Shown: in pieces, positions 17,102 to 47,848 of the stretch
Position numbering within the stretch: position 1 is the first letter of the stretch
How the letters are laid out: the number at the start of each line of letters is the position of its first letter
Source: an uncultured Rhodothermales bacterium
GTDB taxonomy: Bacteria; Bacteroidota; Rhodothermia; Rhodothermales; JABDKH01
DNA length: 64,000 nucleotides
NCBI GenBank assembly: GCA_965367755.1
Contig: CBDUKH010000001.1
Span: 1 to 64,000 of the forward strand
Direction of reading: 5' to 3'
Notes under the pieces: model-generated
The model's input: only the letters and a program-made list of their open reading frames with translations
Database searches by the model: none
Told to the model about the DNA's origin: nothing
Translations under genes and position numbers: made by a program

Positions 17102-17506
17102 TCAGGATTTGATCGACAAATCGCCTGGAAGGTCATTGCGTTGCGGATTTGGATTCAATAGCGGACCGGTCATTGGAAGCTCAAAGGCTGTTACGAAATG
17201 GGCGATCGTCGAAAAGAAGAACTCCTGCTGAAATTCCACAAAATCGTCATCGAACTCATGCCGGTCACTATGGTGCCCATTGATCTCCAGAAAGAATTGT
17301 CTCGGCCAATCAGGGTAATCGGCCTGTGCCCTCTTGACCAATGCGAAGCAATCAGCCGCAGCCTTCTCAAACGAATCGTCTCTTTCGACTACGTGAAGTA
17401 ACGACACAGTGTTATCGAAATTCATGGCGATCCCGGGAGTATCCGGACGCGAGTAGTCTGGTACGATAGGCGCCTGGCCTTCAGGCCCGTTCAGTTTGTC
17501 ATTCAT
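17102..17506 (-). CDS. hypothetical acidic protein overlapping the uvrA stop
   Basis: 134-aa ORF whose start overlaps the uvrA stop by 8 nt. I found no recognisable domain. Confidence 0.4.
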   Translation of the reverse strand: MNDKLNGPEGQAPIVPDYSRPDTPGIAMNFDNTVSLLHVVERDDSFEKAAADCFALVKRAQADYPDWPRQFFLEINGHHSDRHEFDDDFVEFQQEFFFSTIAHFVTAFELPMTGPLLNPNPQRNDLPGDLSIKS

Positions 17507-20450
17507 CTGCAGCTTCCAATTCTAATAATTCGTCTTCGTCCACTTCTTCGTCGGTTTCGTCTTCGGCTTCGTCTGTACCCCCGAAGCCATAACTCAAGTC
17601 CAGATCTTCCTCCGACCCTACGACACTCCGGGCAAGTTCTTCTTTCAAGAATTTCCCGGTATATGAATCCAGTTTGGCAACCGCTTCAGGAGTTCCGGTG
17701 CCGACTATTCTCCCCCCTCGTTCACCGCCTTCCGGTCCCAGATCGATGACGTGGTCAGCGACCTTCACCACATCCAGGTTGTGCTCGATGACGAGTACCG
17801 TGTTGCCCTTCGCGACGAGCGCTTGTAACACGAGGAGCAGGTGGCGAACATCTTCAAAGTGGAGGCCGGTCGTCGGTTCGTCGAGAATGTACAGGGTATT
17901 GCCCGTTCCCGGCCGTGACAGTTCCTTTGCCAACTTCACTCGCTGAGCTTCTCCACCCGACAGGGTCGTTGCTTGCTGCCCGAGTCGGATATAGCCCAAA
18001 CCGACCATTTCCAATGTTCGTAGTTTCCGGTGAATCCGTGGAACGTTCTGGAAAAATTCCAGTGCCTCGGTGACTGTCATTTCCAGGACATCAGCAATAG
18101 TCTTCTTTCGAAATCTGACTTCAAGCGTTTCGGCATTGTATCGTTTGCCATTGCATGTTTCGCATTCGACATACACATCGGGCAAGAAATTCATCTCCAA
18201 CTTGACGATGCCTGCCCCCTTGCAAGACTCACAACGCCCGCCCTTTACGTTGAAAGAAAACCTGCCTGGCTTGTAAGCCCGAATCTTAGACTCAGAGAGA
18301 TCCGCAAAAATATCGCGGATCAAACTGAAGAGTCCGGTATACGTCGCGGGGTTTGACCTCGGAGTTCTTCCAATCGGCCGTTGATCTATCTCAATCACCT
18401 TGTCGACGTTGTCCAGACCCTTGATGTCCGTGTACGGAAGTGGTTGCGTTCGCGCCGAGTGATAGTGTGCCGACAGGATCGGATAGAGTGTTTGATTTAT
18501 CAGACTGGATTTCCCCGAGCCGGATACTCCGGTGACTGCGATGAACTTGCCGAGTGGTATTTCGAGCGTCTCGCCTTTGAGGTTGTGCCCGGTACTACCC
18601 TCCAGAATAATCGAAAGCCCGTTTCCTTTTCGGCGATGGGTCGGCAATGTTATGTGCCGGCGTCCAGTCATGTATTCCACCGTCAAACTGTCCGTCATCT
18701 GATGGATCTTCGACGGATCTCCAGCCGCCATTACCTCGCCTCCATTCTCTCCGGCAAACGGTCCCAGGTCGACTACAAAGTCTGCAGCTTCAATCATCTC
18801 CCGATCGTGCTCGACTACAATGACGGAATTGCCAAGGTCCCGGAGCTTCTTAAGAGATTCGATAAGCTTAACGTTGTCGCGTGCGTGAAGACCAATACTC
18901 GGTTCGTCCAGGACATACAGAACGCCAACGAGCTGAGTACCGATCTGCGTTGCAAGTCGAATCCGCTGACTCTCTCCTCCAGAAAGCGTTCGTGCTGAAC
19001 GATCAAGACTCAAATAGTCAATCCCTACGTCCAACAAGAATCCAAGTCGATCGCGTATCTCTTTAATAATCGGGCGCGCTATGATTTCCGAGCGACCGGT
19101 CAACGACAACGTATCTATGTACTTGTAGAGAGTTGCTATGTCCATGTTTACCAGGTCGGCGATATTTTTATCACCGATCCGATAAGACAAACTTTCCTTT
19201 TTCAGTCGACCGCCCCTGCATTCGGGACACACGACACTGCTCAGGTATGCTTCCGACCAGGCCCGCGACGAAGCAGAGTTTGTCTGCTCGTACGTATGCC
19301 AGACGTGTCCGAAGACGCCACCGAAACGATGCTGGTAAACAACATCCCGATCCTTATAGGAATACACGATGTCAAATTGACGATCGCCGGCACCTTCGAG
19401 AATCACTTCCTTTTGCTCGTCGGACAAGTCTCCGAATGGGGTGTCGAAATCTATCCCGTATTCTTTCGCAACAGCGCGAAGCTGACTGAAAATCCAGATA
19501 TCCCGTGGCTTGCCGATCGGATCCAGGGCACCCTCCCCAATACTGAGCGACGAATCGGGAACAACCAGATCTTCCGAAACGACTTTCTTGACCCCGAGGC
19601 CATTACATGCCTTACAAGCACCATAGGGAGAGTTGAACGAAAAACTGTTTGGTGATGGATCATCATACGAAAGTCCATCCTCGGCAGAATACAGGTGGCG
19701 ACTAAATATTCTGTCTTCACTTTCACCGTCATCCTGGAGTACCGACACAACAAGTACTCCTCCCCCCATGTTCAATGCAGTGTCAACAGACTGGGCAACG
19801 CGCGGGCGTATACCATCCTTGATTACCAGCCGATCGACAACCACCTCAATGTCATGAGTCTTATAGCGATCTACCTTCAAACCCTTGGTTAGCTCGAGAG
19901 TCTCACCATCGACGCGAACGCGTTCAAATCCCTGTCGCGATATCTGTTCAAAAAGCTCCCGGTAATGTCCTTTCCTACCGCGAACAATCGGACTCATGAT
20001 GAGGATGCGAGAGCCCTCCGGTAAATCAATAACGCCATCAATTATTTCGTCATCAGATTGCCGGCGCATCTCTTTTCCCGATACGTAAGAGTATGCGGTC
20101 GAAGCTCGTGCATAGAGAAGTCGGAGAAAATCGTAAATCTCCGTCACGGTCCCAACGGTAGATCGAGGGTTGCTGCTGACGCTCTTCTGTTCTATGGAAA
20201 TGACGGGCGAGAGTCCGTCAATAAAATCTACATCCGGGCGCTCCATCATGCCGAGAAACTGGCGCGCATATGCACTCAGGCTCTCCATGTATCGGCGCTG
20301 GCCTTCAGCATAGATTGTATCGAAGGCGAGGCTGGACTTACCGCTGCCAGAAAGACCAGTCACGACGACCAGGCGATTTCGCGGTATGTCTAGATCAATA
20401 TTCTTCAGGTTGTGTTCGCGAGCACCCCTGATGACAATTCGTTGATCCAT
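17499..20450 (-). CDS. uvrA: excinuclease ABC subunit A
   Basis: 983 aa with two ABC ATPase modules ([10 protein letters not shown] and [10 protein letters not shown] Walker A motifs, LSGGE signatures), zinc-finger Cys clusters, and a ~60-aa Asp/Glu-rich C-terminal tail. Confidence 0.95.
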
Positions 20451-20544: not shown

Positions 20545-21123
20545 CTATGCAGCTGTGCCAGTTCGTTTCAGTTTGCGCGTTTCGTTGACGACCAGATACG
20601 GCTCCAATCGCGGAGAACCGTCACCTTCAAAACCGGGCTGGAAAGAGGGAGGAATCGCAGGTTGGCGCTGAAACCTACCCTTGCTATCTACAGCTTCCCA
20701 TCTCGCGGGCATTCGGTACAAATACCTTCCAATGCCCCATTGGACCGCGGCTCTTCGCAGGCTGCTTGTCAAACCTCCTTTGACAGCTTCGATGTCGGTA
20801 TTGCTGGCACCATCCCATTTTGTGATCCACTCGCCGTCGACTCGAATCGATATGCCGCAAAGGACACCACCATCAGGACCGACTGTATACTCGTTACGCC
20901 AATTGGCTGGCCCACATACCTCATCCAGTCTATCCATTATCGCGCGACTCGAAATGTATGCTACGGCCATTGCTCGCGTCTTGTCCTTCGTAAATACAAT
21001 CGGTTTCCACTCAACATCTGTAGCTGAGAAATACCGCTGTAAACGCCTGAAATCGATTGCTTTTGACATTTGCTCCCTCCTTTCGTGTGGTGTTAGCAAA
21101 TGATAACGACAGGGGGGTGACAA
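20545..21123 (-). CDS. Rad52/Rad22-family single-strand annealing protein (phage Sak-like)
   Basis: KGGLTSSLRRAAVQWGIGRYLY matches the Rad52-family signature. The N-terminal region is also consistent (YISSRAIMDRLDEVCGPANW). The true start may be the internal Met at 21069. Confidence 0.7.
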   Translation of the reverse strand: MSPPCRYHLLTPHERREQMSKAIDFRRLQRYFSATDVEWKPIVFTKDKTRAMAVAYISSRAIMDRLDEVCGPANWRNEYTVGPDGGVLCGISIRVDGEWITKWDGASNTDIEAVKGGLTSSLRRAAVQWGIGRYLYRMPARWEAVDSKGRFQRQPAIPPSFQPGFEGDGSPRLEPYLVVNETRKLKRTGTAA

Positions 21124-37955: not shown

Positions 37956-38795
37956 TCAACCGATATGCATCTGTAATTCTTCGCGACGATGTTTTTGACG
38001 AAGCTTGCGTAATGCTTTCTCCTTGATCTGGCGCACGCGTTCGCGGGTCAACCCGAAGCGCTGTCCGATTTCTTCAAGTGTCAGCGGATGCTCCCTGCCG
38101 ATCCCGAAATAAAGTCGGGTAATTTCCGCCTCGCGCGGGTGAAGGAGGCTAAGCGCCCTTTCGATATCAATCTTCAGAGACTCATCCATCAGAGTATCAT
38201 CTGGAGAAAGATCTTCGTCGTTAGGCAGAACGTCGAGCAATGAGTTATCGTCGTCCTCATTAAACGGCGCGTCCATCGAGAGATGACGACCCGTGTGCTG
38301 CATTGCTTCGCGCACCTTGTCGACATCTACCTCGAGTTCTTTTGCAAGCTCCTCAATGTTAGGCTGGCGCTCGTGTACCTGTGCTAGCTTTGCACTCGTT
38401 TTCCGGATCTTGGAGATCGTGCCGATACGATTGAGCGGCAGACGCACAACGCGACTCTGTTCGGCTAGCGCCTGAAGAATCGCCTGGCGAATCCACCAGA
38501 CTGCGTACGAAATAAATTTAAAGCCGCGCGTTTCATCAAATCGTTGCGCAGCCTTAATCAGGCCATAGTTGCCCTCATTAATCAAGTCGGCCAGCGTCAA
38601 ACCTTGACCCTGATACTTTTTGGCAACGGACACGACAAAGCGCAGGTTTGCGCGAGTCAGACGGTGCAACGCTTCCTGATCATTCTGCTTGATTCTTCTC
38701 GCGAGATCAACTTCTTCGGCGGGAGTAAGCAATGGAATCTGACCAATCTCCTGAAGATATTGGTCCAGCATGCGTTGCTGTCGTGGGACGTACAT
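37956..38795 (-). CDS. rpoD: RNA polymerase primary sigma factor, short FCB-group type (regions 1.2-4, no region 1.1)
   Basis: 279 aa with a region 2 [19 protein letters not shown]...[12 protein letters not shown] block and region 4 [28 protein letters not shown]. Confidence 0.85.
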
Positions 38796-39006: not shown

Positions 39007-40551
39007 TTACATGGAGGCAGTTTCAAGTACGCCATCGGCAACATCCCGTTCCTCACTCATTCTAGGAACCTTACTCTGGGCGCTGACCCTTTTCTTCGTC
39101 TTCTTCATCCATTTGTAGAAAGTGCCTTTCGGCAGGCTGATGATCTGCGGTGGGCCAAAAGCCTCAGCTTCACGTCGGATCATGTAGTGCCGGTTAATCT
39201 CCTGCAGGTATTTGTCCATTACTGAAGACATGGCATCCAAATCCGCCGGCGGCGTCTCAAACTCTATCAACCATTGATGGGCTGGCATTCGATCTACACT
39301 CGGCGGCGTGGGAGCCACATGATAATCAACGACAGTAGAAGAGAATTTTGCGCAGGCGATCTCCAAAGTTTTGCGAACTTCATCTGCAAAAACAGCCTCG
39401 CCATATTTGTCGATCATCTCACTCGTCCTGCCAGCTACCACAATCCTGTGTGGATACAACTGGGTAAACTTGATCACGTCATTAACCGGATAGCTCCACA
39501 ACCCACTTGCTGTAGAAACAAAAAGAGCATAACGGAGACCTGTCTCTACTTCATCAATGGAATACCGCCGGGCATTGGGGTCGCCCAGCTCTTCCATTTT
39601 GACAAACTGATAGTAAACTCCGCTATTCAGGTGGAGCAACATATCTTCTCGAGCCGGGTCATCTTGAAACGAGAAAAAACCTTCCGATGCACCGTACGTT
39701 TCCAGCAAAGCCACATCTGGATTCCCGATCTGATCATTCAGAACCTGGCGGTATGAGCTGAGCGCAACACCGCCGGTAAAAATCACTCGCAGGTTCGGCC
39801 AAATTTCTGAGATCGTGTATGCGCTCGCAATACCTTCATCCCGTGCGTACGCTAACAGCCGGGTAAACATAATCATTGCCCAGGTCGGTACGGTTGCAAT
39901 CGCCCGAATATCCATCCTTGCGACATGCTTTATAACGGCTGTCAGCTTCGCTTCCCAGTTTCCAATAAACAGAATCTCGTTTGGTACCGCCTGATAGTAG
40001 TCGGAAATTAGCCGAGGAGCGTGTCGCGCCTGAAGACCCGAAACTTCCCCGATGTAGTTGCCGGGGTACTCCTCATCTTCGTGCATCTGTCCCGGTAAAC
40101 TCAGAAACCTGCCAAACCAGAATTTGGAATTTCCGGACGTTGCGCTGTAAGTGAATGCACTGCCGAGACTGAACTTCAGATTGTTTTTCAGCGTCTCGCG
40201 ACTTATCGGAATGATCTTGCCGGCTGAAACTGTCCCGCTCGATACAGCAAAGTCTCTAAAGACACCGGGCCAGATAATGTCTGGTACTCCCTGCCGGATA
40301 CGTGCGACATCACTTACATAATCCTCGTAGGTATGTATGCGAACATTCGATTCGTAGTCCTTCCTTACGTCAGGGCTTTTGGAAAGCGAACTAAAATTAT
40401 AGCGTCTGCCCCATTCGGTATGAGACGCCGACGATAGCAATTTTCTAAGCAGCGAGGTTTGAACGCTGACCGGATCTTTGGTAAACTCGCTTATTGTATG
40501 CAGCGAGGTACCGGGAACCGCTCGGACAATGTTGCCAATTATTCTCGACAT
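39007..40551 (-). CDS. GH3 (auxin-responsive promoter) family acyl-adenylate-forming enzyme homolog
   Basis: 514 aa. Overall GH3-family architecture common in Bacteroidota (YSATSGNSKFW...GRTSEM region). The family assignment is from memory. Confidence 0.6.
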   Translation of the reverse strand: MSRIIGNIVRAVPGTSLHTISEFTKDPVSVQTSLLRKLLSSASHTEWGRRYNFSSLSKSPDVRKDYESNVRIHTYEDYVSDVARIRQGVPDIIWPGVFRDFAVSSGTVSAGKIIPISRETLKNNLKFSLGSAFTYSATSGNSKFWFGRFLSLPGQMHEDEEYPGNYIGEVSGLQARHAPRLISDYYQAVPNEILFIGNWEAKLTAVIKHVARMDIRAIATVPTWAMIMFTRLLAYARDEGIASAYTISEIWPNLRVIFTGGVALSSYRQVLNDQIGNPDVALLETYGASEGFFSFQDDPAREDMLLHLNSGVYYQFVKMEELGDPNARRYSIDEVETGLRYALFVSTASGLWSYPVNDVIKFTQLYPHRIVVAGRTSEMIDKYGEAVFADEVRKTLEIACAKFSSTVVDYHVAPTPPSVDRMPAHQWLIEFETPPADLDAMSSVMDKYLQEINRHYMIRREAEAFGPPQIISLPKGTFYKWMKKTKKRVSAQSKVPRMSEERDVADGVLETASM

Positions 40552-42405: not shown

Positions 42406-43080
42406 ATGGAAACTGATGACTGGAAGTACCAACGCAGGCGTCGCCGGTTGGTAGATACCCTGTATGAGAAGGGAATTCGCGATAAGGCCGTTCTTGATGC
42501 CGTCGGACGAGTTCCTCGACACCTGTTCGTCGATCCTGGACTCATTTCCCGGTCATACGAAGACGAAGCACTTCCCATTGGATTGAAGCAAACGATTTCT
42601 CAACCGTATACCGTTGCGTATCAGACTTCCCTTCTGGAAATCTCGCCCGACGACAAAATTCTCGAAGTGGGCACCGGTAGTGGATACCAGGCTGCAGTCC
42701 TTGCCGAACTCGGTTGCATAATCTATTCGATCGAGAGGTTGCAACCATTGTACGATCGGACAAAAGAGCTCCTGACAAAATTGAACTACCGGGTAACGAT
42801 GAAATGCGGAGACGGAACGGCTGGATGGGATACTTTTGCTCCGTATGACGGGATAATTGTCACCGCTGGTGCAAACAGGGTTCCAGATGCACTGCTTGAA
42901 CAGCTACGAATGCCCTCGGACGACAAGCCTGGTGGTACACTCATCATTCCGGTCGGGGACCGAGATGGTCAGACCATGTATAAAGTCACGCGTACAGGAG
43001 AAAAATCTTTCTCACGGGAAAAGTCACACGACTTCCTGTTCGTTCCACTGGTCAAGGAAAGTGGCTCAGAAAGCCGCTAA
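42406..43080 (+). CDS. pcm: protein-L-isoaspartate O-methyltransferase
   Basis: SAM motif VLEVGTGSGYQAAVLAEL, 224 aa, PIMT-family order of motifs. Confidence 0.85.
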   Translation: METDDWKYQRRRRRLVDTLYEKGIRDKAVLDAVGRVPRHLFVDPGLISRSYEDEALPIGLKQTISQPYTVAYQTSLLEISPDDKILEVGTGSGYQAAVLAELGCIIYSIERLQPLYDRTKELLTKLNYRVTMKCGDGTAGWDTFAPYDGIIVTAGANRVPDALLEQLRMPSDDKPGGTLIIPVGDRDGQTMYKVTRTGEKSFSREKSHDFLFVPLVKESGSESR

Positions 43081-43379
43081 CTCTCGACTTGTTTATTGGA
43101 TGACCAGTGCCAGGCTTCGTGGTCGACAGACTCTACGATCCCAACGATTGTCGCATCTGTTGGTGTAAGACCTGGTTTGAACGGGATCGCTGCTTCAGCT
43201 GAGGTTGCGTAGAGAACCATGTCTCCCTGACCGGCATCGACGGTATCCAGAGCTATTATTGGCATTCCCCGCACGTGGCCGCTGAAAGTTAACGGCTGTA
43301 CCATCAGAAGGCGCTTACTTTCCAGGGCAGGATGTTTTTGTGTCGCCCAGATATTCCCGACTACTTTGGCAAGTTTCAT
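43077..43379 (-). CDS. EutN/CcmL/PduN-family bacterial microcompartment vertex (BMC-P) protein
   Basis: 100 aa. MKLAKVVGNIWATQK... aligns with the EutN/PduN N-terminus and central ALDTVDAGQGDMVLYATSAEA block. Confidence 0.65.
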   Translation of the reverse strand: MKLAKVVGNIWATQKHPALESKRLLMVQPLTFSGHVRGMPIIALDTVDAGQGDMVLYATSAEAAIPFKPGLTPTDATIVGIVESVDHEAWHWSSNKQVES

Positions 43380-43672
43380 GCGACATCCGCCATCATTTCC
43401 TCAAACTGGGAGATGTCCAGCTTGTCAACGATTGCTGTTATCACGGCATCCACGGGCTTCTTGTCCGTGAGCTCCGTCTGCCGCGCACTTGAACCCTGTG
43501 CGACGAGCACAACCTCTCCGACTCCAGCACCGACGCTGTCGACGGCGACTACAAACTTGTCTTTAAGACTATAGTCGAGCTCCACCTCTTGCACAATCTG
43601 GAACTTCATTCCGACAAGCTGGGCATCCTTGCGTGTAGCCCAAACCGTCCCGACGACTTTTCCTAATATCAT
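43376..43672 (-). CDS. EutN/CcmL/PduN-family bacterial microcompartment vertex (BMC-P) protein
   Basis: 98 aa. MILGKVVGTVWATRK...VVAVDSVGAGVGEVVLVAQGSSARQ closely parallels PduN/EutN. It shares 4 bp with its tandem partner. Confidence 0.75.
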   Translation of the reverse strand: MILGKVVGTVWATRKDAQLVGMKFQIVQEVELDYSLKDKFVVAVDSVGAGVGEVVLVAQGSSARQTELTDKKPVDAVITAIVDKLDISQFEEMMADVA

Positions 43673-43840
43673 TGCTTACAACGATTATTTACGCTCGCAT
43701 TCCACAGTAATATAGGAACGACGAAACGTAAAGCGAGACAACCTTAATGACTTAGTATCGTGATTATTTCGTGCCCTGGTTGCCTGATCGCATGGAAATA
43801 ATTACGTTTTGGCTCTTTTACATACAAAACCGTGTAGACA

Positions 43841-45109
43841 ATGCGAGGATTAACGGCACTCACGCTAAGCGTTATACTGCTTGGCGGATTAACCGGCTGC
43901 GAGAACAGCACAGAGGGTGGCGAAATGACCACCGATCAAATCGATGCTCTTGCCGCCGAAGTGCAGGACGAAATTATTACAATAGACACCCATATCGACA
44001 TCCCATTTACGTTCGCCACCGATGAGGCAGATCCGGGTGTTCGGGGCGATTACCAGGTCGATCTTCCGAAGTTAGATGAAGGAGGCCTCGATGCCGGCTT
44101 TTGGATAGTGTACGTCGGACAGACTGAAAGGACTGAAGAGAATTACGCCGAGGCAAAAGAACTTGCTATGACCAAGTTCGATGCAATTCATCGTATGACT
44201 GATGAAATGTATCCGGATCAAATTGGACTCGCGTATACCGCAGAAGATGTCATCTCCATCCACAACGAGGGAAAGAAGGTTGCACTCATCGGAATTGAGA
44301 ATGGCTATGTGATCGGAAAAGATCTTTCATTGCTGGAGAAATACCACGCGCTTGGTGCACGATATATCACGCTGGCTCACGGCGGTCACAACGACATCGC
44401 CGACTCATCGACTCCACGTGAAAATCTCGGTGACGGAGAAGAGGAGCATGGAGGCATCAGCGACTTCGGTGCAGAAGTTATCGAGGAAATGAATCGCCTG
44501 GGTATTATGGTAGATGTATCACACATCTCCAAGAAAGCAATGCTGGAAGCAGCGCAGCTGTCGGCAGCCCCGGTCATCGCATCTCATTCCAGTGCCCGAG
44601 CACTATGCGATCATCCCCGAAATATGGATGACGAGATGCTTCAAGCGCTGAAGAAAAATGGTGGCGTCGTTCAGACAGTTGCTTTTTCGTCATACGTAAA
44701 AGAATCTCCTGAAGAAAAGACTGCCGCAATGAATGCCCTACGAGAAGAAATGGGAATCACCAGCAGAGCCGCATGGTCGAATTTGACAGATGAGCAGCGA
44801 GAGGCATATCAGGCCCGCGTGGCTGAGTTGGACGAACAATGGCCACCAGCTAACGTCAGTGACTTTGTTGATCATATTGATTATATGGTTAACCTTATCG
44901 GTATTGACCACGTCGGCATCAGCTCTGATTTTGACGGCGGCGGCGGTGTTGTTGGATGGCAAGACGCCAGCGAGACTCTCAACGTGACCAAAGAACTTGT
45001 CAGACGAGGTTACTCGAAAGAGCAGATTGAGCAAATCTGGGGTCGTAACCTTCTTCGTGTTCTTCGCAGTGTCGAAGAAGTAGCGGCACAGAAACAGGCG
45101 GAAGCCTAG
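43841..45109 (+). CDS. membrane dipeptidase (peptidase family M19) lipoprotein
   Basis: Lipoprotein signal (LLGGLTGC). M19/renal dipeptidase motifs DTHIDIP, HNDIAD, and an SSDFDGGGG metal-binding region. Confidence 0.8.
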   Translation: MRGLTALTLSVILLGGLTGCENSTEGGEMTTDQIDALAAEVQDEIITIDTHIDIPFTFATDEADPGVRGDYQVDLPKLDEGGLDAGFWIVYVGQTERTEENYAEAKELAMTKFDAIHRMTDEMYPDQIGLAYTAEDVISIHNEGKKVALIGIENGYVIGKDLSLLEKYHALGARYITLAHGGHNDIADSSTPRENLGDGEEEHGGISDFGAEVIEEMNRLGIMVDVSHISKKAMLEAAQLSAAPVIASHSSARALCDHPRNMDDEMLQALKKNGGVVQTVAFSSYVKESPEEKTAAMNALREEMGITSRAAWSNLTDEQREAYQARVAELDEQWPPANVSDFVDHIDYMVNLIGIDHVGISSDFDGGGGVVGWQDASETLNVTKELVRRGYSKEQIEQIWGRNLLRVLRSVEEVAAQKQAEA

Positions 45110-45164: not shown

Positions 45165-46343
45165 TTAGCCCCGGGGGTTTGTCAGGAATGACGTGCCTGG
45201 AATCTTGTGATCAGAGATTCCGAAGTAGTCAAGGACCGAACTGGCGTGGTCAGCAAATGAATCACGCAATCCGAGGTCGGTACACACTGCATCTCCAAAA
45301 AGCAGAAGCGGCACATATTCTCGGGTATGATCTGTTCCGGGGAATGTCGGGTCGTTACCATGATCTGCGGTCAACAGCATTCGACTGCCCTCCGGAAGCG
45401 CTGCAAGGATTGATGGCAGCTCCTGATCAAACTCTTCGAGCGCAGTTGCGAAACCTGCGGGATCGTTTCTGTGGCCATACTCCTGATCAAAATCGACGAG
45501 ATTGACCCACACATAGGTTTTTTCACCGCTGTGATTGTGGAGAGCGGATATTGTCCGGGCTATACCATCAGCGTTGGAAGCTGTTTTGAACGATTTGTCA
45601 AATCCGACACCGCCGAACAGGTCTGCTACCTTTCCGATTGAGATGGTCTCAATCCCATTATTCTGAAGAATGGTTTGGAGGGGGTCGACGACAGGCAGGT
45701 ACGAATAATCTTTACGGTCTTTCGAAACGCGAGAAAAATTGCCAGGTGTTCCGATAAACGGCCGGGCAATCACGCGTCCTACTCCATGATCATCGACGCA
45801 GACGTGCCTGCGAGTAAGGTCGCACATCTCGTACAGAGACATCAGTGGAATAATGTCGGTGTGGGCTGCAATTTGGAAAACACTGTCAGCCGAAGTGTAT
45901 ACGATCGGGAACCCGGTCGCGATATGCTGCTCACCCAGTTGGTCGATAATTTCGGTCCCAGATGCGGCCTTGTTACCGAGGATGCCTTCGGATGATGTTA
46001 CCTCCTTGAATCGCTGTATCAGCGCTTCAGGAAAACCGTTGGGATAGGTGGGGAACGGTTTTTCCAGATTGATTCCTCCAAGCTCCCAATGACCCGTTGT
46101 AGAATCTTTGCCAGCGGACTTCTCCATCATTTTCCCCCATGATGCCCCAGGTGAGTCTGTGGGAGGAATCCCCGGGAGGGTGATAATGTTGCCGAGCCCT
46201 GCACGCTGAAGGTTAGGCAGGTTGGGTCGCTGTTGTTCGACAACATGAGCAAGCGTATTTGCGCCGACATCGCCGTAGTCTGACGCGTCAGGTTGGTACC
46301 CAACGCCTACGCCATCCAGAACAATCGTAATACAGAAAGGCAA
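45165..46343 (-). CDS. deoB: phosphopentomutase
   Basis: 392 aa in the alkaline-phosphatase-superfamily DeoB arrangement (ILDGVGVG..., TADHGND, metal-binding Asp/His). Confidence 0.8.
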   Translation of the reverse strand: MPFCITIVLDGVGVGYQPDASDYGDVGANTLAHVVEQQRPNLPNLQRAGLGNIITLPGIPPTDSPGASWGKMMEKSAGKDSTTGHWELGGINLEKPFPTYPNGFPEALIQRFKEVTSSEGILGNKAASGTEIIDQLGEQHIATGFPIVYTSADSVFQIAAHTDIIPLMSLYEMCDLTRRHVCVDDHGVGRVIARPFIGTPGNFSRVSKDRKDYSYLPVVDPLQTILQNNGIETISIGKVADLFGGVGFDKSFKTASNADGIARTISALHNHSGEKTYVWVNLVDFDQEYGHRNDPAGFATALEEFDQELPSILAALPEGSRMLLTADHGNDPTFPGTDHTREYVPLLLFGDAVCTDLGLRDSFADHASSVLDYFGISDHKIPGTSFLTNPRG

Positions 46344-46354
46344 TTTGATCTGAG

Positions 46355-47848
46355 TTATTCCAGGATGGTGCAGGCACCTGTTTCGAGTGCTTCTTCCAGG
46401 GCCGTCGACGCATCTGTTCGCAATTCATCAGCGCCGTGATGCCGATCAGTCAACATGGCAACGCCGACGCTGACGCCACCTGACAATCCGTTGCCGCTTT
46501 TTGAAGCTTCATTCTGGATTCGGATTGCCCAGCGTTCAACATCATTAACATTGCCTCGGTACAGGACGCCAAAAGTCAGTTCGCCGAAATGCTCAACGCG
46601 TCCTTTGTCAGTTGATCGCCTTAGAAGCTTGTCCAGTTGCTCTTCGATTTTGGCAATGTCTTCTTTACTTTTTTGTGATACCGCCTCGGCATCATTGAGA
46701 TAGATCAGGGCAAGGGCGAGTTCTTTACTGGCGGCCCGGGCATTCGAAATTTCGTCAGCGATAATTTCCCGTCGCGGCCTAGATCCATCTGACTCGACAT
46801 CGCCAGACCCGAAATGCATGTCCAGCATTGGACCAATTACCTGGGCATAGCGATCAAACAGGCGACAGGACGTTGCATCTCCGACGAATGATTCGTCGAA
46901 GGAATCTGCGAGTAGCAGGTAACGTTCGGCGTCCGAACTGGCATAAATTCTGGCTGTTGCCACGTTCCTGACGGCGATATTTTCGCGGTAATACCCGACA
47001 GCATCTTCAAGCAGACCTTCTGGACCGACACGCATGACCTCTACTGTATTACGGTTCTTCGTAGAGGAGATAAGTGGCATTGGAGAGATAAATGATCCTG
47101 ACGTTCGTGCGTAGCCGTTCTTGCTGACGACACCTACAATCGAATACTTTGTCGTATCCAGTTTGTACGAAAGGACGCAGACAGTATGAGCGTTTATTGC
47201 AGCTCGTAAGGATACGAGGCATGGGAGCAAGACCTGTCCCAGAGATTCGTCCTGGGCCTCTTGAACAGCGATATAATTCTCGTCTGCCCTGGGCTTGGCT
47301 TTCGAAGGATTAGGCCTGCTGGATGACACACGGGAGCCTCTGTCGAGCTCGCTTGCGTTGTCGGTTGTCGACTTGGTTTTCTTGGAAGTTACAGGTCTGG
47401 CAACCGACACTTCTTCACCGGGCTCAAACGGAATGTGATCTTCATCCATATCATCAGCAAACATTTCTACCGTATCTCCCGCCGGCTTCGTTGCGGCTGA
47501 TTTTGAAACAGATTTATAGGCGGCTGTCTTGCCTTTCTTCGACGTGGTAGGCCGGTGCTCAATCTCATCTGATGGTTGAGTGCTACTGCCTGTCGATGGA
47601 GTGGCCGATGTTTTCGGTTTGATTTCTAGAATGCCCAGCGACTGCAGGTCATCTACTTCTTTTGCGTCGCTCCTCATCTCCCGCCCAGATTGACCTGACG
47701 GAAAAAACTCTCGTCTCTTGTCGAGCAAGTACGAGACGACGGTAAGGCCCAGAAAAAGAATGGCCAGGCCGTACAGAATATTCAGCTTAAGTACGAACGC
47801 GAGCAGCAGTGAAAGGACAGCAAGCGTTACAAATAGGATTCGGGACAT
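46355..47848 (-). CDS. membrane-anchored protein with GAF-like middle region and degenerate GGDEF-like C-terminal domain
   Basis: Two N-terminal transmembrane helices and an S/T/K-rich linker. The C-terminal domain shows the GGDEF fold pattern (LALIYLNDAEAV...HFGELTFGVL...VGVAMLT...ADELRTDASTALEEA), but the GG(D/E)EF motif is degenerate (GELTF). Confidence 0.5.
   Translation of the reverse strand: MSRILFVTLAVLSLLLAFVLKLNILYGLAILFLGLTVVSYLLDKRREFFPSGQSGREMRSDAKEVDDLQSLGILEIKPKTSATPSTGSSTQPSDEIEHRPTTSKKGKTAAYKSVSKSAATKPAGDTVEMFADDMDEDHIPFEPGEEVSVARPVTSKKTKSTTDNASELDRGSRVSSSRPNPSKAKPRADENYIAVQEAQDESLGQVLLPCLVSLRAAINAHTVCVLSYKLDTTKYSIVGVVSKNGYARTSGSFISPMPLISSTKNRNTVEVMRVGPEGLLEDAVGYYRENIAVRNVATARIYASSDAERYLLLADSFDESFVGDATSCRLFDRYAQVIGPMLDMHFGSGDVESDGSRPRREIIADEISNARAASKELALALIYLNDAEAVSQKSKEDIAKIEEQLDKLLRRSTDKGRVEHFGELTFGVLYRGNVNDVERWAIRIQNEASKSGNGLSGGVSVGVAMLTDRHHGADELRTDASTALEEALETGACTILE

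What the first reader, a model, noticed from the sequence alone, without database searches (positions are those of the whole stretch)
43077..43672. Two tandem, overlapping EutN/CcmL-type microcompartment vertex genes with no shell genes nearby
Both small proteins (100 and 98 aa) align to EutN/PduN/CcmL pentamer proteins. The second shows VVAVDSVGAGVGEVVLVAQGSSAR, very close to PduN.

No BMC-H shell protein, signature enzyme or encapsulation-peptide-bearing gene occurs within the window. The neighbours are pcm and an M19 dipeptidase. Two divergent pentamer paralogs encoded away from any shell locus are unusual. They could serve a satellite locus or a non-BMC role.
Basis: partly seen in the sequence, partly recalled or inferred. 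Interest (0 to 1): 0.55.

Follow-up and report, generated by a model that had tools for sequence, protein, structure and literature searches.

The report
Satellite pair of microcompartment vertex genes
Two small back-to-back genes really do encode microcompartment vertex (pentamer) proteins far from any shell genes, but the same pair is kept in the same neighbourhood across Rhodothermales, Ignavibacteria and related phyla and matches the already catalogued "fragmented" FRAG1 microcompartment type, so it is a known oddity, not a new one.

Summary
Two minus-strand genes, A (43376-43672, 98 aa) and B (43077-43379, 100 aa), overlap by ATGA. Both are full-length PF03319 EutN/CcmL proteins, and their models match only solved BMC-P pentamer proteins. 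No BMC-H gene or signature enzyme lies in the 64 kb window or about 10 kb beyond either end.

The pair is not unusual for its lineage. It is present in 77 of 80 related genomes (Rhodothermales, Ignavibacteria, Kryptonia, Chlorobi, Calditrichia and Bacteroidota MAGs). It always sits in one conserved housekeeping block: GAF-GGDEF-like protein, phosphopentomutase deoB, A, B, primary sigma factor. None of the 80 loci has BMC-H within 10 kb.

This fits FRAG1, the shell-protein-only, scattered BMC type of Sutter et al. 2021. That catalogue explicitly includes Rhodothermaeota and labels a 99-aa Rubricoccus BMC-P as a FRAG1 satellite.

Most likely A is the canonical vertex pentamer and B a divergent paralog of a BMC-P triplet. 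The hexamers would be encoded elsewhere. I could not test whether this genome has BMC-H, so a shell-independent role is not excluded.

The recurrent deoB linkage is not mentioned in the literature I could search. It hints at a deoxyribose-phosphate (SPU-like) function.

The parts
43376..43672 (-). Gene A: 98-aa BMC-P (EutN/CcmL) protein. It is the canonical 'green/viridian3-like' paralog and carries GAGVGE, GSSARQT and IVD motifs.
   Evidence: PF03319 E 3.5e-29, full length. Best solved relative is the HO shell pentamer 5V74, E 1.6e-22. The model matches only BMC-P structures. It is 68-88% identical in 80 genomes of several FCB lineages.
43077..43379 (-). Gene B: 100-aa divergent BMC-P paralog. 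It has DAGQGD instead of GAGxGE, TSAEAAIP instead of GSSARQT, and IVE instead of IVD.
   Evidence: PF03319 E 1.5e-25. It is 35% identical to A. The model has pLDDT 80.8 and its top 46 PDB hits are all BMC-P. Orthologs follow A in 77 of 80 loci. B-specific residues are invariant among 56 orthologs.
43376..43379 (-). ATGA stop/start overlap of A and B, which suggests translational coupling in one operon.
   Evidence: Read directly from the sequence. The same overlapping or abutting arrangement is seen in relatives.
43673..43840 (.). 168-bp divergent intergenic region between A and the M19 dipeptidase gene. It presumably holds the pair's own promoter in this lineage.
   Evidence: Gene layout. No convincing sigma-70 or Bacteroidetes-type promoter consensus was found, so promoter function is inferred only.
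45165..46343 (-). deoB, phosphopentomutase. It is the conserved upstream same-strand neighbour of the pair, here separated from A by an inserted M19 dipeptidase gene.
   Evidence: NF003766 472.6 bits (cutoff 256) and TIGR01696 415 bits (cutoff 341). It lies upstream on the same strand within 1.6 kb in 47 of 74 evaluable loci, and within 160 bp in 22.
43841..45109 (+). M19 membrane dipeptidase gene. This is a lineage-specific insertion between deoB and A, not part of the conserved block.
   Evidence: PF01244. It is present at this spot only in the window's own population (L001-L008). Other Rhodothermales carry other inserts or none there.
46355..47848 (-). Protein X: membrane-anchored, with a degenerate GGDEF-like C-terminus. 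It is a conserved member of the syntenic block upstream of deoB.
   Evidence: No Pfam or NCBIfam hit. It is 35% identical (E 2e-70) to the gene directly upstream of A-B in Rhodocaloribacter litoris. Its C-terminus aligns to the GGDEF domain of the GAF-GGDEF protein at the same position in other phyla.
42406..43080 (+). pcm, protein-L-isoaspartate O-methyltransferase. It is convergent with B and their stop codons overlap (43077-43080). It is the first gene of a pcm-cdaA-folP block, specific to Rhodothermales, lying between B and the sigma factor.
   Evidence: NF001453 222.8 bits (cutoff 188). It is convergent and adjacent in 20 of 71 evaluable loci, all Rhodothermales-type.
37956..38795 (-). 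Primary-type sigma-70 factor (279 aa). In non-Rhodothermales relatives it is the gene immediately downstream of B on the same strand.
   Evidence: Sigma70 regions r1_2, r2, r3 and r4. It is directly downstream of B in 37 of 71 loci and within 10 kb in 62 of 71.

Best explanation
A and B are two bacterial-microcompartment vertex (BMC-P) paralogs. They form a satellite locus of a fragmented, FRAG1-type microcompartment system, which is ancestral and vertically inherited in the FCB group (Rhodothermales, Ignavibacteria, Kryptonia, Chlorobi, Calditrichia and some Bacteroidota).

A is the canonical pentamer that caps the twelve vertices of an icosahedral shell. The hexamers (BMC-H) of that shell are encoded elsewhere in the genome.

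B is a divergent paralog of the 'BMC-P triplet' kind, with altered edge and pore motifs. It probably forms alternative pentamers with a specialised, still unknown role.

The two genes are translationally coupled (ATGA overlap). In this lineage they are expressed from their own promoter, because an M19 dipeptidase gene has been inserted between them and their ancestral upstream partner deoB.

**Shown:** family, fold, tandem organisation, conservation and synteny, and absence of nearby shell genes or enzymes.

**Inferred:** pentamer assembly, presence of BMC-H elsewhere in this genome, the role of B, and any link to deoxyribose-phosphate catabolism.
For: **Fold and family.**
- Both proteins are full-length PF03319.
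- Both models match only solved BMC-P pentamer proteins.
- A keeps GAGVGE, GSSARQT and IVD exactly as in the H. ochraceum pentamer that sits in the solved shell 5V74.

**Conservation.**
- The A-B pair is present in 77 of 80 related genomes. A is 68-88% identical across lineages.
- B's own substitutions are invariant among 56 orthologs. Both are therefore under purifying selection.

**Literature.**
- Sutter et al. 2021 (PMC8217296, Suppl. Data 2) define FRAG1 as a shell-protein-only type. Its genes are scattered over up to six places. It occurs in Ignavibacteria, Kryptonia, Bacteroidetes, Chlorobi and Rhodothermaeota, with a BMC-P triplet plus two BMC-H.
- Their BMC-P tree labels the 99-aa Rubricoccus SG-29 protein and Ignavibacteria and Bacteroidetes orthologs as 'FRAG1 (sat)', clade viridian3. 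Path lengths in that tree are about 0.34 substitutions per site between the Rubricoccus and Ignavibacteriae entries. That fits A (about 75% identity) and not B (about 48%).
- Axen et al. 2014, Table S2, lists Chloroherpeton thalassium with 3 BMC-P and 2 BMC-H in three separate satellite-like loci. At least one FCB isolate therefore has dispersed BMC-P genes and also BMC-H.
Against: - No BMC-H was found anywhere I could look: 64 kb of window, about 10 kb beyond each end, and 10 kb either side of the pair in 80 relatives.
- No third BMC-P was seen in any locus.
- No DeoC, RpiB, aldehyde dehydrogenase or other metabolosome core enzyme lies near the pair.
- I could not retrieve a single BMC-H sequence from an FCB genome. 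Co-occurrence therefore rests on the literature, not on my own test.
- Sutter et al. found FRAG1 in only 'a few' Rhodothermaeota and marked some orthologs 'UA (sat) (omitted)'. Meanwhile the pair looks near-universal in the relatives sampled here.
- The pair sits in a housekeeping block next to the primary sigma factor. That is atypical for accessory, horizontally mobile BMC genes.
Confidence: 0.68

Rival explanations
1. Shell-independent pair. In this genome, and perhaps in many Rhodothermales, there is no BMC-H. A and B then act as free pentameric OB-fold-like assemblies with a conserved cellular role. That role might be tied to the genes they have travelled with for a very long time: deoB, the GGDEF-like membrane protein, or the primary sigma factor.
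For: - No BMC-H within 10 kb in any of 80 relatives, nor in about 84 kb around the pair here.
- Very stable vertical synteny in a housekeeping block.
- Across phyla A is more conserved (about 75%) than the adjacent primary sigma factor (about 63%).
- Rhodothermus and Salinibacter are absent from the 2014 list of BMC-containing genomes.
- Some orthologs are left unassigned ('UA, omitted') in the 2021 catalogue.
- The authors found no enzymes or encapsulation peptides for FRAG types.
Against: - A retains, unchanged, the edge motifs it shares with the pentamer seen in contact with hexamers in the solved HO shell. A free pentamer would have little reason to keep them.
- FRAG1 genomes in the catalogue do have BMC-H.
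- Dispersal of shell genes is itself the defining trait of FRAG types.
- The flat identity of A across taxa is partly a selection artefact, because the 80 loci were chosen as the best matches to A.
- I did not establish that Rhodothermus or Salinibacter carry the pair at all.
Confidence: 0.2
2. Functional deoB-linked module. The pair, with or without a shell, belongs to a deoxyribose/ribose-phosphate catabolic system like the SPU microcompartments. deoB would feed deoxyribose-5-phosphate to an aldolase that releases acetaldehyde inside the compartment. This refines the best explanation and does not exclude it.
For: - deoB is a bona fide phosphopentomutase.
- It lies upstream on the same strand in 47 of 74 evaluable loci across Rhodothermales, Ignavibacteria, Melioribacteraceae, Calditrichia and Bacteroidota MAGs, often 10-100 bp from A.
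- A's clade is named 'viridian3_mixed-spu' in the catalogue. The related FRAG3, FRAG5 and FRAG8 types carry the SPU aldolase.
- A thymidine-phosphorylase-like gene lies about 6 kb beyond the window's left end.
Against: - deoB is missing from the block in Kryptonia, Chlorobiaceae and several other loci, and in R. litoris.
- No DeoC, RpiB or aldehyde dehydrogenase is near the pair anywhere.
- deoB has no terminal extension that could be an encapsulation peptide: it matches the 396-position model over residues 5-387.
- The whole block is housekeeping (sigma factor, def, fmt), so the linkage may be inherited gene order and not functional coupling.
- In this window an inserted gene separates deoB from the pair.
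Confidence: 0.2
3. Decaying remnant. The pair is a leftover of a lost microcompartment locus and has no current function.
For: No shell or enzyme genes lie nearby.
Against: Both ORFs are intact in all population variants and in 77 of 80 relatives. A has 44 invariant columns and B has 26 among orthologs. The ATGA coupling is retained.
Confidence: 0.03

Closest known systems
FRAG1 fragmented bacterial microcompartment type (Sutter et al. 2021, Nat Commun 12:3809, Suppl. Data 2)
   Same: - The taxonomic range matches: Ignavibacteria, Kryptonia, Bacteroidetes, Chlorobi, Rhodothermaeota.
- Shell genes are dispersed with no recognisable enzymes nearby.
- The viridian3 BMC-P is labelled 'satellite', including the 99-aa protein of Rubricoccus SG-29.
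- There are multiple BMC-P paralogs.
   Different: - I could see only two of the three BMC-P, and none of the two BMC-H or the PduS/T pair that complete the type.
- The catalogue text does not mention the conserved block of GGDEF-like protein, deoB, A, B and sigma factor found here.
Haliangium ochraceum BMC-P (Hoch_5814; shell structure PDB 5V74) and the HO type I satellite locus with two BMC-P
   Same: - A is 57% identical over 83 aligned positions to the HO pentamer, with the same GAGVGE, GSSARQTE and IVD motifs.
- HO systems also split their BMC-P triplet between a main locus and a satellite with two BMC-P genes.
   Different: - In HO the canonical (A-like) pentamer is in the main locus beside BMC-H. 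The satellite holds the two divergent paralogs plus an aldolase.
- Here the canonical and one divergent paralog are paired, with no aldolase.
CsoS4A/CsoS4B tandem vertex genes of alpha-carboxysomes
   Same: Two adjacent BMC-P paralogs that always co-occur as a pair.
   Different: - CsoS4A/B lie inside the cso operon with shell hexamers, Rubisco and carbonic anhydrase.
- A and B score far below the CsoS4 equivalog cutoffs: 32-34 bits against 120.
SPU (sugar-phosphate utilisation) microcompartments
   Same: - A's clade is shared with SPU loci according to the catalogue's HMM name.
- The neighbouring deoB acts one step upstream of the SPU signature aldolase DeoC.
   Different: The SPU signature enzymes (pfam01791 aldolase, pfam02502 RpiB) and the aldehyde dehydrogenase are absent from the window and from all 80 related loci.

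Membership tests
BMC-P / EutN_CcmL (PF03319) vertex proteins | Full-length PF03319 domain above the gathering score | tested here: met
   A 101.6 bits and B 89.9 bits against a cutoff of 25. Both cover profile positions 1-82/83.
BMC-P / EutN_CcmL (PF03319) vertex proteins | Five-stranded beta-barrel fold of solved BMC-P subunits | tested here: met
   AlphaFold models have pLDDT 74 (A) and 80.8 (B). The top 46-47 Foldseek PDB hits are all BMC-P (CcmL, EutN, GrpN, HO BMC-P, CsoS4), with TM 0.65-0.76.
BMC-P / EutN_CcmL (PF03319) vertex proteins | Conserved edge and pore motifs. My recollection is that GAGxGE and I(V/I)D are the motifs reported at the pentamer-hexamer interface in the 2017 HO shell structure paper; this is from memory and was not checked against the paper. 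| tested here: inconclusive
   A has GAGVGE (48-53) and IVD (81-83), identical to the HO pentamer. B has DAGQGD and IVE. The interface role of these motifs could not be checked here.
BMC-P / EutN_CcmL (PF03319) vertex proteins | Assembly into homopentamers | not testable with these tools
   Only monomer prediction is available.
BMC-P / EutN_CcmL (PF03319) vertex proteins | Co-occurrence with BMC-H (PF00936) hexamer genes in the same genome | not testable with these tools
   No BMC-H in the window, in the 10-kb extensions, or within 10 kb in 80 relatives. Whole genomes could not be scanned. Attempts to retrieve an FCB BMC-H failed.
FRAG1 BMC type (Sutter 2021) | Host lineage among Ignavibacteria, Kryptonia, Bacteroidetes, Chlorobi or Rhodothermaeota | tested here: met
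   The closest relatives are Rhodothermales MAGs and Rhodocaloribacter. Orthologous pairs occur in all the listed lineages.
FRAG1 BMC type (Sutter 2021) | Shell genes dispersed, with no identifiable enzymes or encapsulation peptides at the locus | tested here: met
   No BMC-associated enzymes lie near the pair in the window or in 80 loci. Encapsulation peptides were not searched.
FRAG1 BMC type (Sutter 2021) | [quoted passage not shown] | tested here: inconclusive
   Two paralogs were found: A is green-like, and B's clade is undetermined. No third BMC-P lies within 10 kb in any locus. The authors' clade HMMs were not available.
FRAG1 BMC type (Sutter 2021) | Two BMC-H, one with a long C-terminal domain, elsewhere in the genome | not testable with these tools
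   See above. Supported only by the literature for relatives.
Named equivalogs CcmL, EutN, CsoS4A, CsoS4B (NCBIfam) | Score above the curated equivalog cutoff | tested here: not met
   Best scores are A 85.3 and B 56.5 against 125 for CcmL, about 48-49 against 118 for EutN, and 32-34 against 120 for CsoS4.
PduN | Membership of the PduN orthologous group, located in a pdu operon | not tested
   No PduN model or solved structure was in the libraries used. No pdu genes are in the window.
SPU microcompartment | pfam01791 DeoC-type aldolase and pfam02502 RpiB next to shell genes | tested here: not met
   A phmmer search with E. coli DeoC, RpiB, DeoD and EutE found none in the window or in any of the loci fetched by then (L001-L091), apart from one weak ALDH hit in L029.

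The most novel reading that the evidence does not exclude
The A-B pair is a core, vertically inherited module of the FCB group. It is held for a very long time between phosphopentomutase and the primary sigma factor.

Either (a) it gives the enigmatic, enzyme-less FRAG1 microcompartments their first functional anchor. That anchor would be deoxyribose-phosphate catabolism, as in SPU compartments, with the cargo encoded elsewhere.

Or (b) in many of these genomes it works without any hexamer shell, which would be the first non-shell role for BMC-P pentamers.
Probability: 0.2. Interest if true: 0.65.

Novelty: new member of a known kind. Interest (0 to 1): 0.32.

Why it matters
As it stands, this is one more example of the dispersed FRAG1 shell genes already catalogued in 2021, so by itself it changes little.

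Its value is as a pointer. FRAG microcompartments have no assigned function, cargo or regulation. This survey shows that their canonical vertex gene and one paralog sit in a single conserved block across at least five deep FCB lineages. That block runs GAF-GGDEF-like protein, deoB, A, B, primary sigma factor.

This gives a concrete hypothesis to test: deoxyribose-phosphate or nucleoside catabolism.

It also gives a simple genomic question: do all carriers of the pair have BMC-H? The answer would decide whether BMC-P proteins can have a life outside shells.

Tried and rejected
**1. Finding BMC-H in the same or related genomes.** All routes failed.
- A search with the H. ochraceum BMC-H returned only Myxococcota-like hexamers at 83-97% identity, with almost no taxon names.
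- A search of the 50%-identity representative library with a BMC-H query, looking for the long C-terminal-extension hexamer of FRAG1, returned mostly frameshift read-through artefacts with no names.
- The search with B found only Rhodothermales-type B orthologs.
- The isolate-looking hit P0503 turned out to be from a WGS set, not Rhodothermus.

**2. Extending the window** by 10 kb on each side via exact-protein look-ups found no shell genes. One look-up found no record.

**3. Promoter and terminator scans** of the A upstream region gave nothing above chance. This covered both the sigma-70 consensus and the Bacteroidetes TAnnTTTG motif.

**4. Literature.**
- No paper in the library links microcompartments with phosphopentomutase.
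- None discusses EutN-type genes in Rhodothermus, Salinibacter or Ignavibacterium.
- Krupovic & Koonin 2017 does not mention orphan BMC-P.
- The BMC Caller supplement holds no HMMs.

**5. Readings rejected.**
- The pair as EutN, CcmL or CsoS4 orthologs: scores fall below the equivalog cutoffs.
- The pair as part of an SPU locus: no signature enzymes.
- pcm or the M19 dipeptidase as functional partners: pcm adjacency is limited to Rhodothermales and is convergent, and M19 is a lineage-specific insertion.
Full report
**The observation**

The region 43077-43672 holds two minus-strand ORFs. A is 43376..43672 (98 aa) and is transcribed first. B is 43077..43379 (100 aa). A's stop and B's start share the four bases ATGA at 43376-43379. 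B's stop codon overlaps that of the convergent pcm gene at 43077-43080.

Both proteins match Pfam PF03319 (EutN_CcmL) over its whole length. A scores E 3.5e-29 and B E 1.5e-25. They are 35% identical to each other.

Neither reaches the NCBIfam equivalog cutoffs for CcmL, EutN, CsoS4A or CsoS4B. They are family members, not orthologs of those named proteins.

The best solved relative of A is the Haliangium ochraceum pentamer present in the intact shell structure 5V74 (E 1.6e-22). B is more distant (E 3.6e-11).

AlphaFold models reproduce the small beta-barrel (A pLDDT 74, B pLDDT 80.8). In Foldseek against the PDB, the best 46-47 hits for each are BMC-P proteins only, with TM about 0.65-0.76.

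**No shell genes or enzymes nearby**

A six-frame phmmer search of the window with PduA, CcmK2 and EutM found nothing better than E 0.09. It found only these two EutN-type ORFs.

Precomputed and fresh Pfam annotation of the window shows ordinary housekeeping genes. These include uvrA, bamA, sucA, ftsW, a PBP, argS, moaA/C and pyrD. There is no PF00936, aldehyde dehydrogenase, PduL or DeoC.

Exact-protein look-ups extended the view about 10 kb past each end of the window without finding shell genes.

The window comes from an uncultured Rhodothermales population. It is seen in several ENA and Logan assemblies with identical gene order.

**What relatives show**

A is strikingly conserved, at 75-95% identity among the best 120 database clusters. 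Many of these are named Rhodothermales, including Rhodocaloribacter litoris.

One scan of one genome per GTDB species returned 80 loci. A is 68-88% identical in Rhodothermales, Ignavibacteria/Melioribacteraceae, Kryptonia, Chlorobiaceae and Calditrichia. It is also found in MAGs labelled Bacteroidota or Chitinophagales.

I translated all loci in six frames and searched them with window proteins and four BMC-H queries. I then clustered all ORFs. The results:
- The A-B tandem is present in 77 of 80 loci. The other three are cut by contig ends or by ORF calling.
- No locus has a BMC-H or a third BMC-P within 10 kb.
- No locus has DeoC, RpiB, DeoD or an EutE-like dehydrogenase.

**A conserved housekeeping block**

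The pair sits in one conserved block. In order, the block contains:
- a membrane GAF-GGDEF protein, which in Rhodothermales is the degenerate 'X' at window 46355-47848;
- phosphopentomutase deoB;
- in 24 non-Rhodothermales loci, a small gene plus a PIN-like gene;
- A, then B;
- a primary-type sigma-70 factor;
- NlpC/P60, def and fmt.

The frequencies are as follows:
- deoB lies upstream on the same strand within 1.6 kb in 47 of 74 evaluable loci, and within 160 bp in 22.
- The sigma factor follows B directly in 37 of 71 loci and lies within 10 kb in 62 of 71.
- In Rhodothermales an inverted pcm-cdaA-folP block lies between B and the sigma factor. pcm is adjacent in 20 of 71 loci.

In the window itself, deoB (45165-46343) is a clear equivalog at 472.6 bits against a cutoff of 256. 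It is separated from A by an M19 dipeptidase gene on the other strand. Other Rhodothermales carry different insertions at the same spot. In this lineage the pair therefore probably has its own promoter in the 168-bp gap at 43673-43840. No consensus promoter could be recognised there.

Median identities to the window proteins:

| Protein | Rhodothermia-labelled loci | Other lineages |
|---|---|---|
| A | 77% | 75% |
| B | 59% | 48% |
| deoB | 59% | 52% |
| sigma factor | 96% | 63% |

The flatness of A is partly a selection effect, because the loci were chosen as the best matches to A.

**Comparison with what is known**

Sutter et al. 2021 (PMC8217296) describe 'fragmented' (FRAG) BMC types. Their shell genes lie in up to six places, often with no identifiable enzymes or encapsulation peptides.

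FRAG1 comprises 57 loci and is a 'shell protein only locus type'. It is most prominent in Ignavibacteria and also occurs in Kryptonia, Bacteroidetes, Chlorobi and Rhodothermaeota. [quoted passage not shown]

Their BMC-P tree lists several proteins as 'FRAG1 (sat)' in clade viridian3 (best HMM P_viridian3_mixed-spu). These are the 99-aa protein of Rubricoccus SG-29 (Rhodothermaeota) and orthologs from Ignavibacteria and Bacteroidetes. One Ignavibacteriae entry is marked 'UA (sat) (omitted)'.

The short path lengths between these entries amount to about 0.34 substitutions per site. That fits A (about 75% identity) and not B. A is therefore most likely the viridian3 'green' paralog, and B one of the divergent triplet members.

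B's distinguishing residues are invariant among 56 orthologs. They are DAGQGD for GAGxGE, TSxEAAIP for GSSARQT, and IVE for IVD. B is therefore a maintained, specialised paralog and not a decaying copy.

Axen et al. 2014, Table S2, lists Chloroherpeton thalassium with 3 BMC-P and 2 BMC-H in three satellite-like loci. It lists Ignavibacterium album with 2 BMC-H. FCB isolates with dispersed shell genes do therefore possess hexamers.

**Most likely mechanism**

A forms the canonical pentamer that closes the vertices of a shell built from BMC-H encoded elsewhere. B forms an alternative pentamer of unknown specialisation. The two are made together from a translationally coupled bicistron.

The steps that are shown:
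- family and fold;
- tandem coupling;
- purifying selection;
- conserved synteny;
- dispersal from other shell genes.

The steps that are inferred:
- pentamer formation;
- the existence of BMC-H and a third BMC-P in this genome;
- the role of B.

**What remains open**

A shell-independent role therefore keeps about a one-in-five chance. It is supported by three things:
- the total absence of nearby BMC-H;
- the housekeeping, vertically inherited context;
- the catalogue finding FRAG1 in only 'a few' Rhodothermaeota.

**The deoB clue**

The recurrent deoB-A-B arrangement is not mentioned in the text or supplements of the 2021 catalogue. No paper in the searchable library pairs 'microcompartment' with 'phosphopentomutase' in this sense.

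DeoB supplies deoxyribose-5-phosphate to the DeoC aldolase, which defines the SPU compartments. The related FRAG3, FRAG5 and FRAG8 types carry that aldolase. The linkage therefore hints that FRAG1 may serve nucleoside or deoxyribose catabolism.

The hint is weak, for four reasons:
- deoB is absent from the block in Kryptonia, Chlorobiaceae, R. litoris and others.
- It has no terminal extension that could act as an encapsulation peptide.
- No aldolase or dehydrogenase is nearby.
- The whole block may simply be preserved ancestral gene order.

**Verdict**

The 'unusual orphan' reading is largely explained by a known, if enigmatic, class. This is a new member (an uncultured Rhodothermales) of the FRAG1 satellite BMC-P loci.

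Interest is modest. It would rise if whole-genome scans showed carriers without any BMC-H, or if the deoB link proved functional.

Noticed in passing
window 46355-47848 (-): A 497-aa protein has no Pfam or NCBIfam hit. It has an N-terminal membrane helix, a long low-complexity region and a C-terminal segment of about 135 aa. That segment aligns (30% identity) to the GGDEF domain of a 646-aa GAF-GGDEF protein at the same position in Ignavibacteria-type loci. It looks like a degenerate, probably non-catalytic GGDEF protein conserved next to deoB and the BMC-P pair.
   Followed up: partly
L071 9211-9968 (also L038, L040, L056, L059, L076, L088 and others): In 24 non-Rhodothermales loci, a gene of about 100 aa plus a PIN-like gene of 130-150 aa sit between deoB and A. 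The best PF01850 match is E 8.8e-11. The pair looks like a VapBC-type toxin-antitoxin pair but is fixed in position across families, which is unusual for such modules.
   Followed up: partly
window 43841-45109 (+); L012 3623-4258; L014 8698-9465; L018 7241-7999; L050 7580-8131: The gap between deoB and A is an insertion hot spot in Rhodothermales. The window carries an M19 dipeptidase there. L012 has a small lipoprotein. L014 and L018 have secreted proteins that are homologous to each other and lie on the opposite strand; I guess from their C-termini that they are T9SS-sorted, but I did not check this. L050 has what looks like a TnpB-type transposon-protein fragment, judged by eye only.
   Followed up: no
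window 43077-43080: The stop codons of B (minus strand) and pcm (plus strand) overlap. The two convergent transcription units therefore have no intergenic space for terminators.
   Followed up: no
L093 16170-17504 (about 6 kb beyond the window's left end): A thymidine/pyrimidine-nucleoside phosphorylase gene (PF02885, PF00591, PF07831) lies just outside the window. The organism therefore has at least two deo-type nucleoside catabolic genes, encoded apart from each other.
   Followed up: no
window about 20545-21123 (-), next to uvrA (17499-20450): A small ORF with a Rad52_Rad22 family hit (PF04098) sits directly upstream of uvrA. That family is usually phage-derived in bacteria.
   Followed up: no
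window 39007-40551 (-): A 514-aa GH3 'auxin-responsive promoter' family protein (PF03321 plus its middle and C-terminal domains) lies between folP and the sigma factor gene.
   Followed up: no
L097-L100 (locus of P0503): In another Rhodothermales-type population the A-B pair has left the conserved block. It lies between a short-chain dehydrogenase gene and lepA, beside a variable region with a resolvase in one variant. The pair can therefore relocate as a unit.
   Followed up: no
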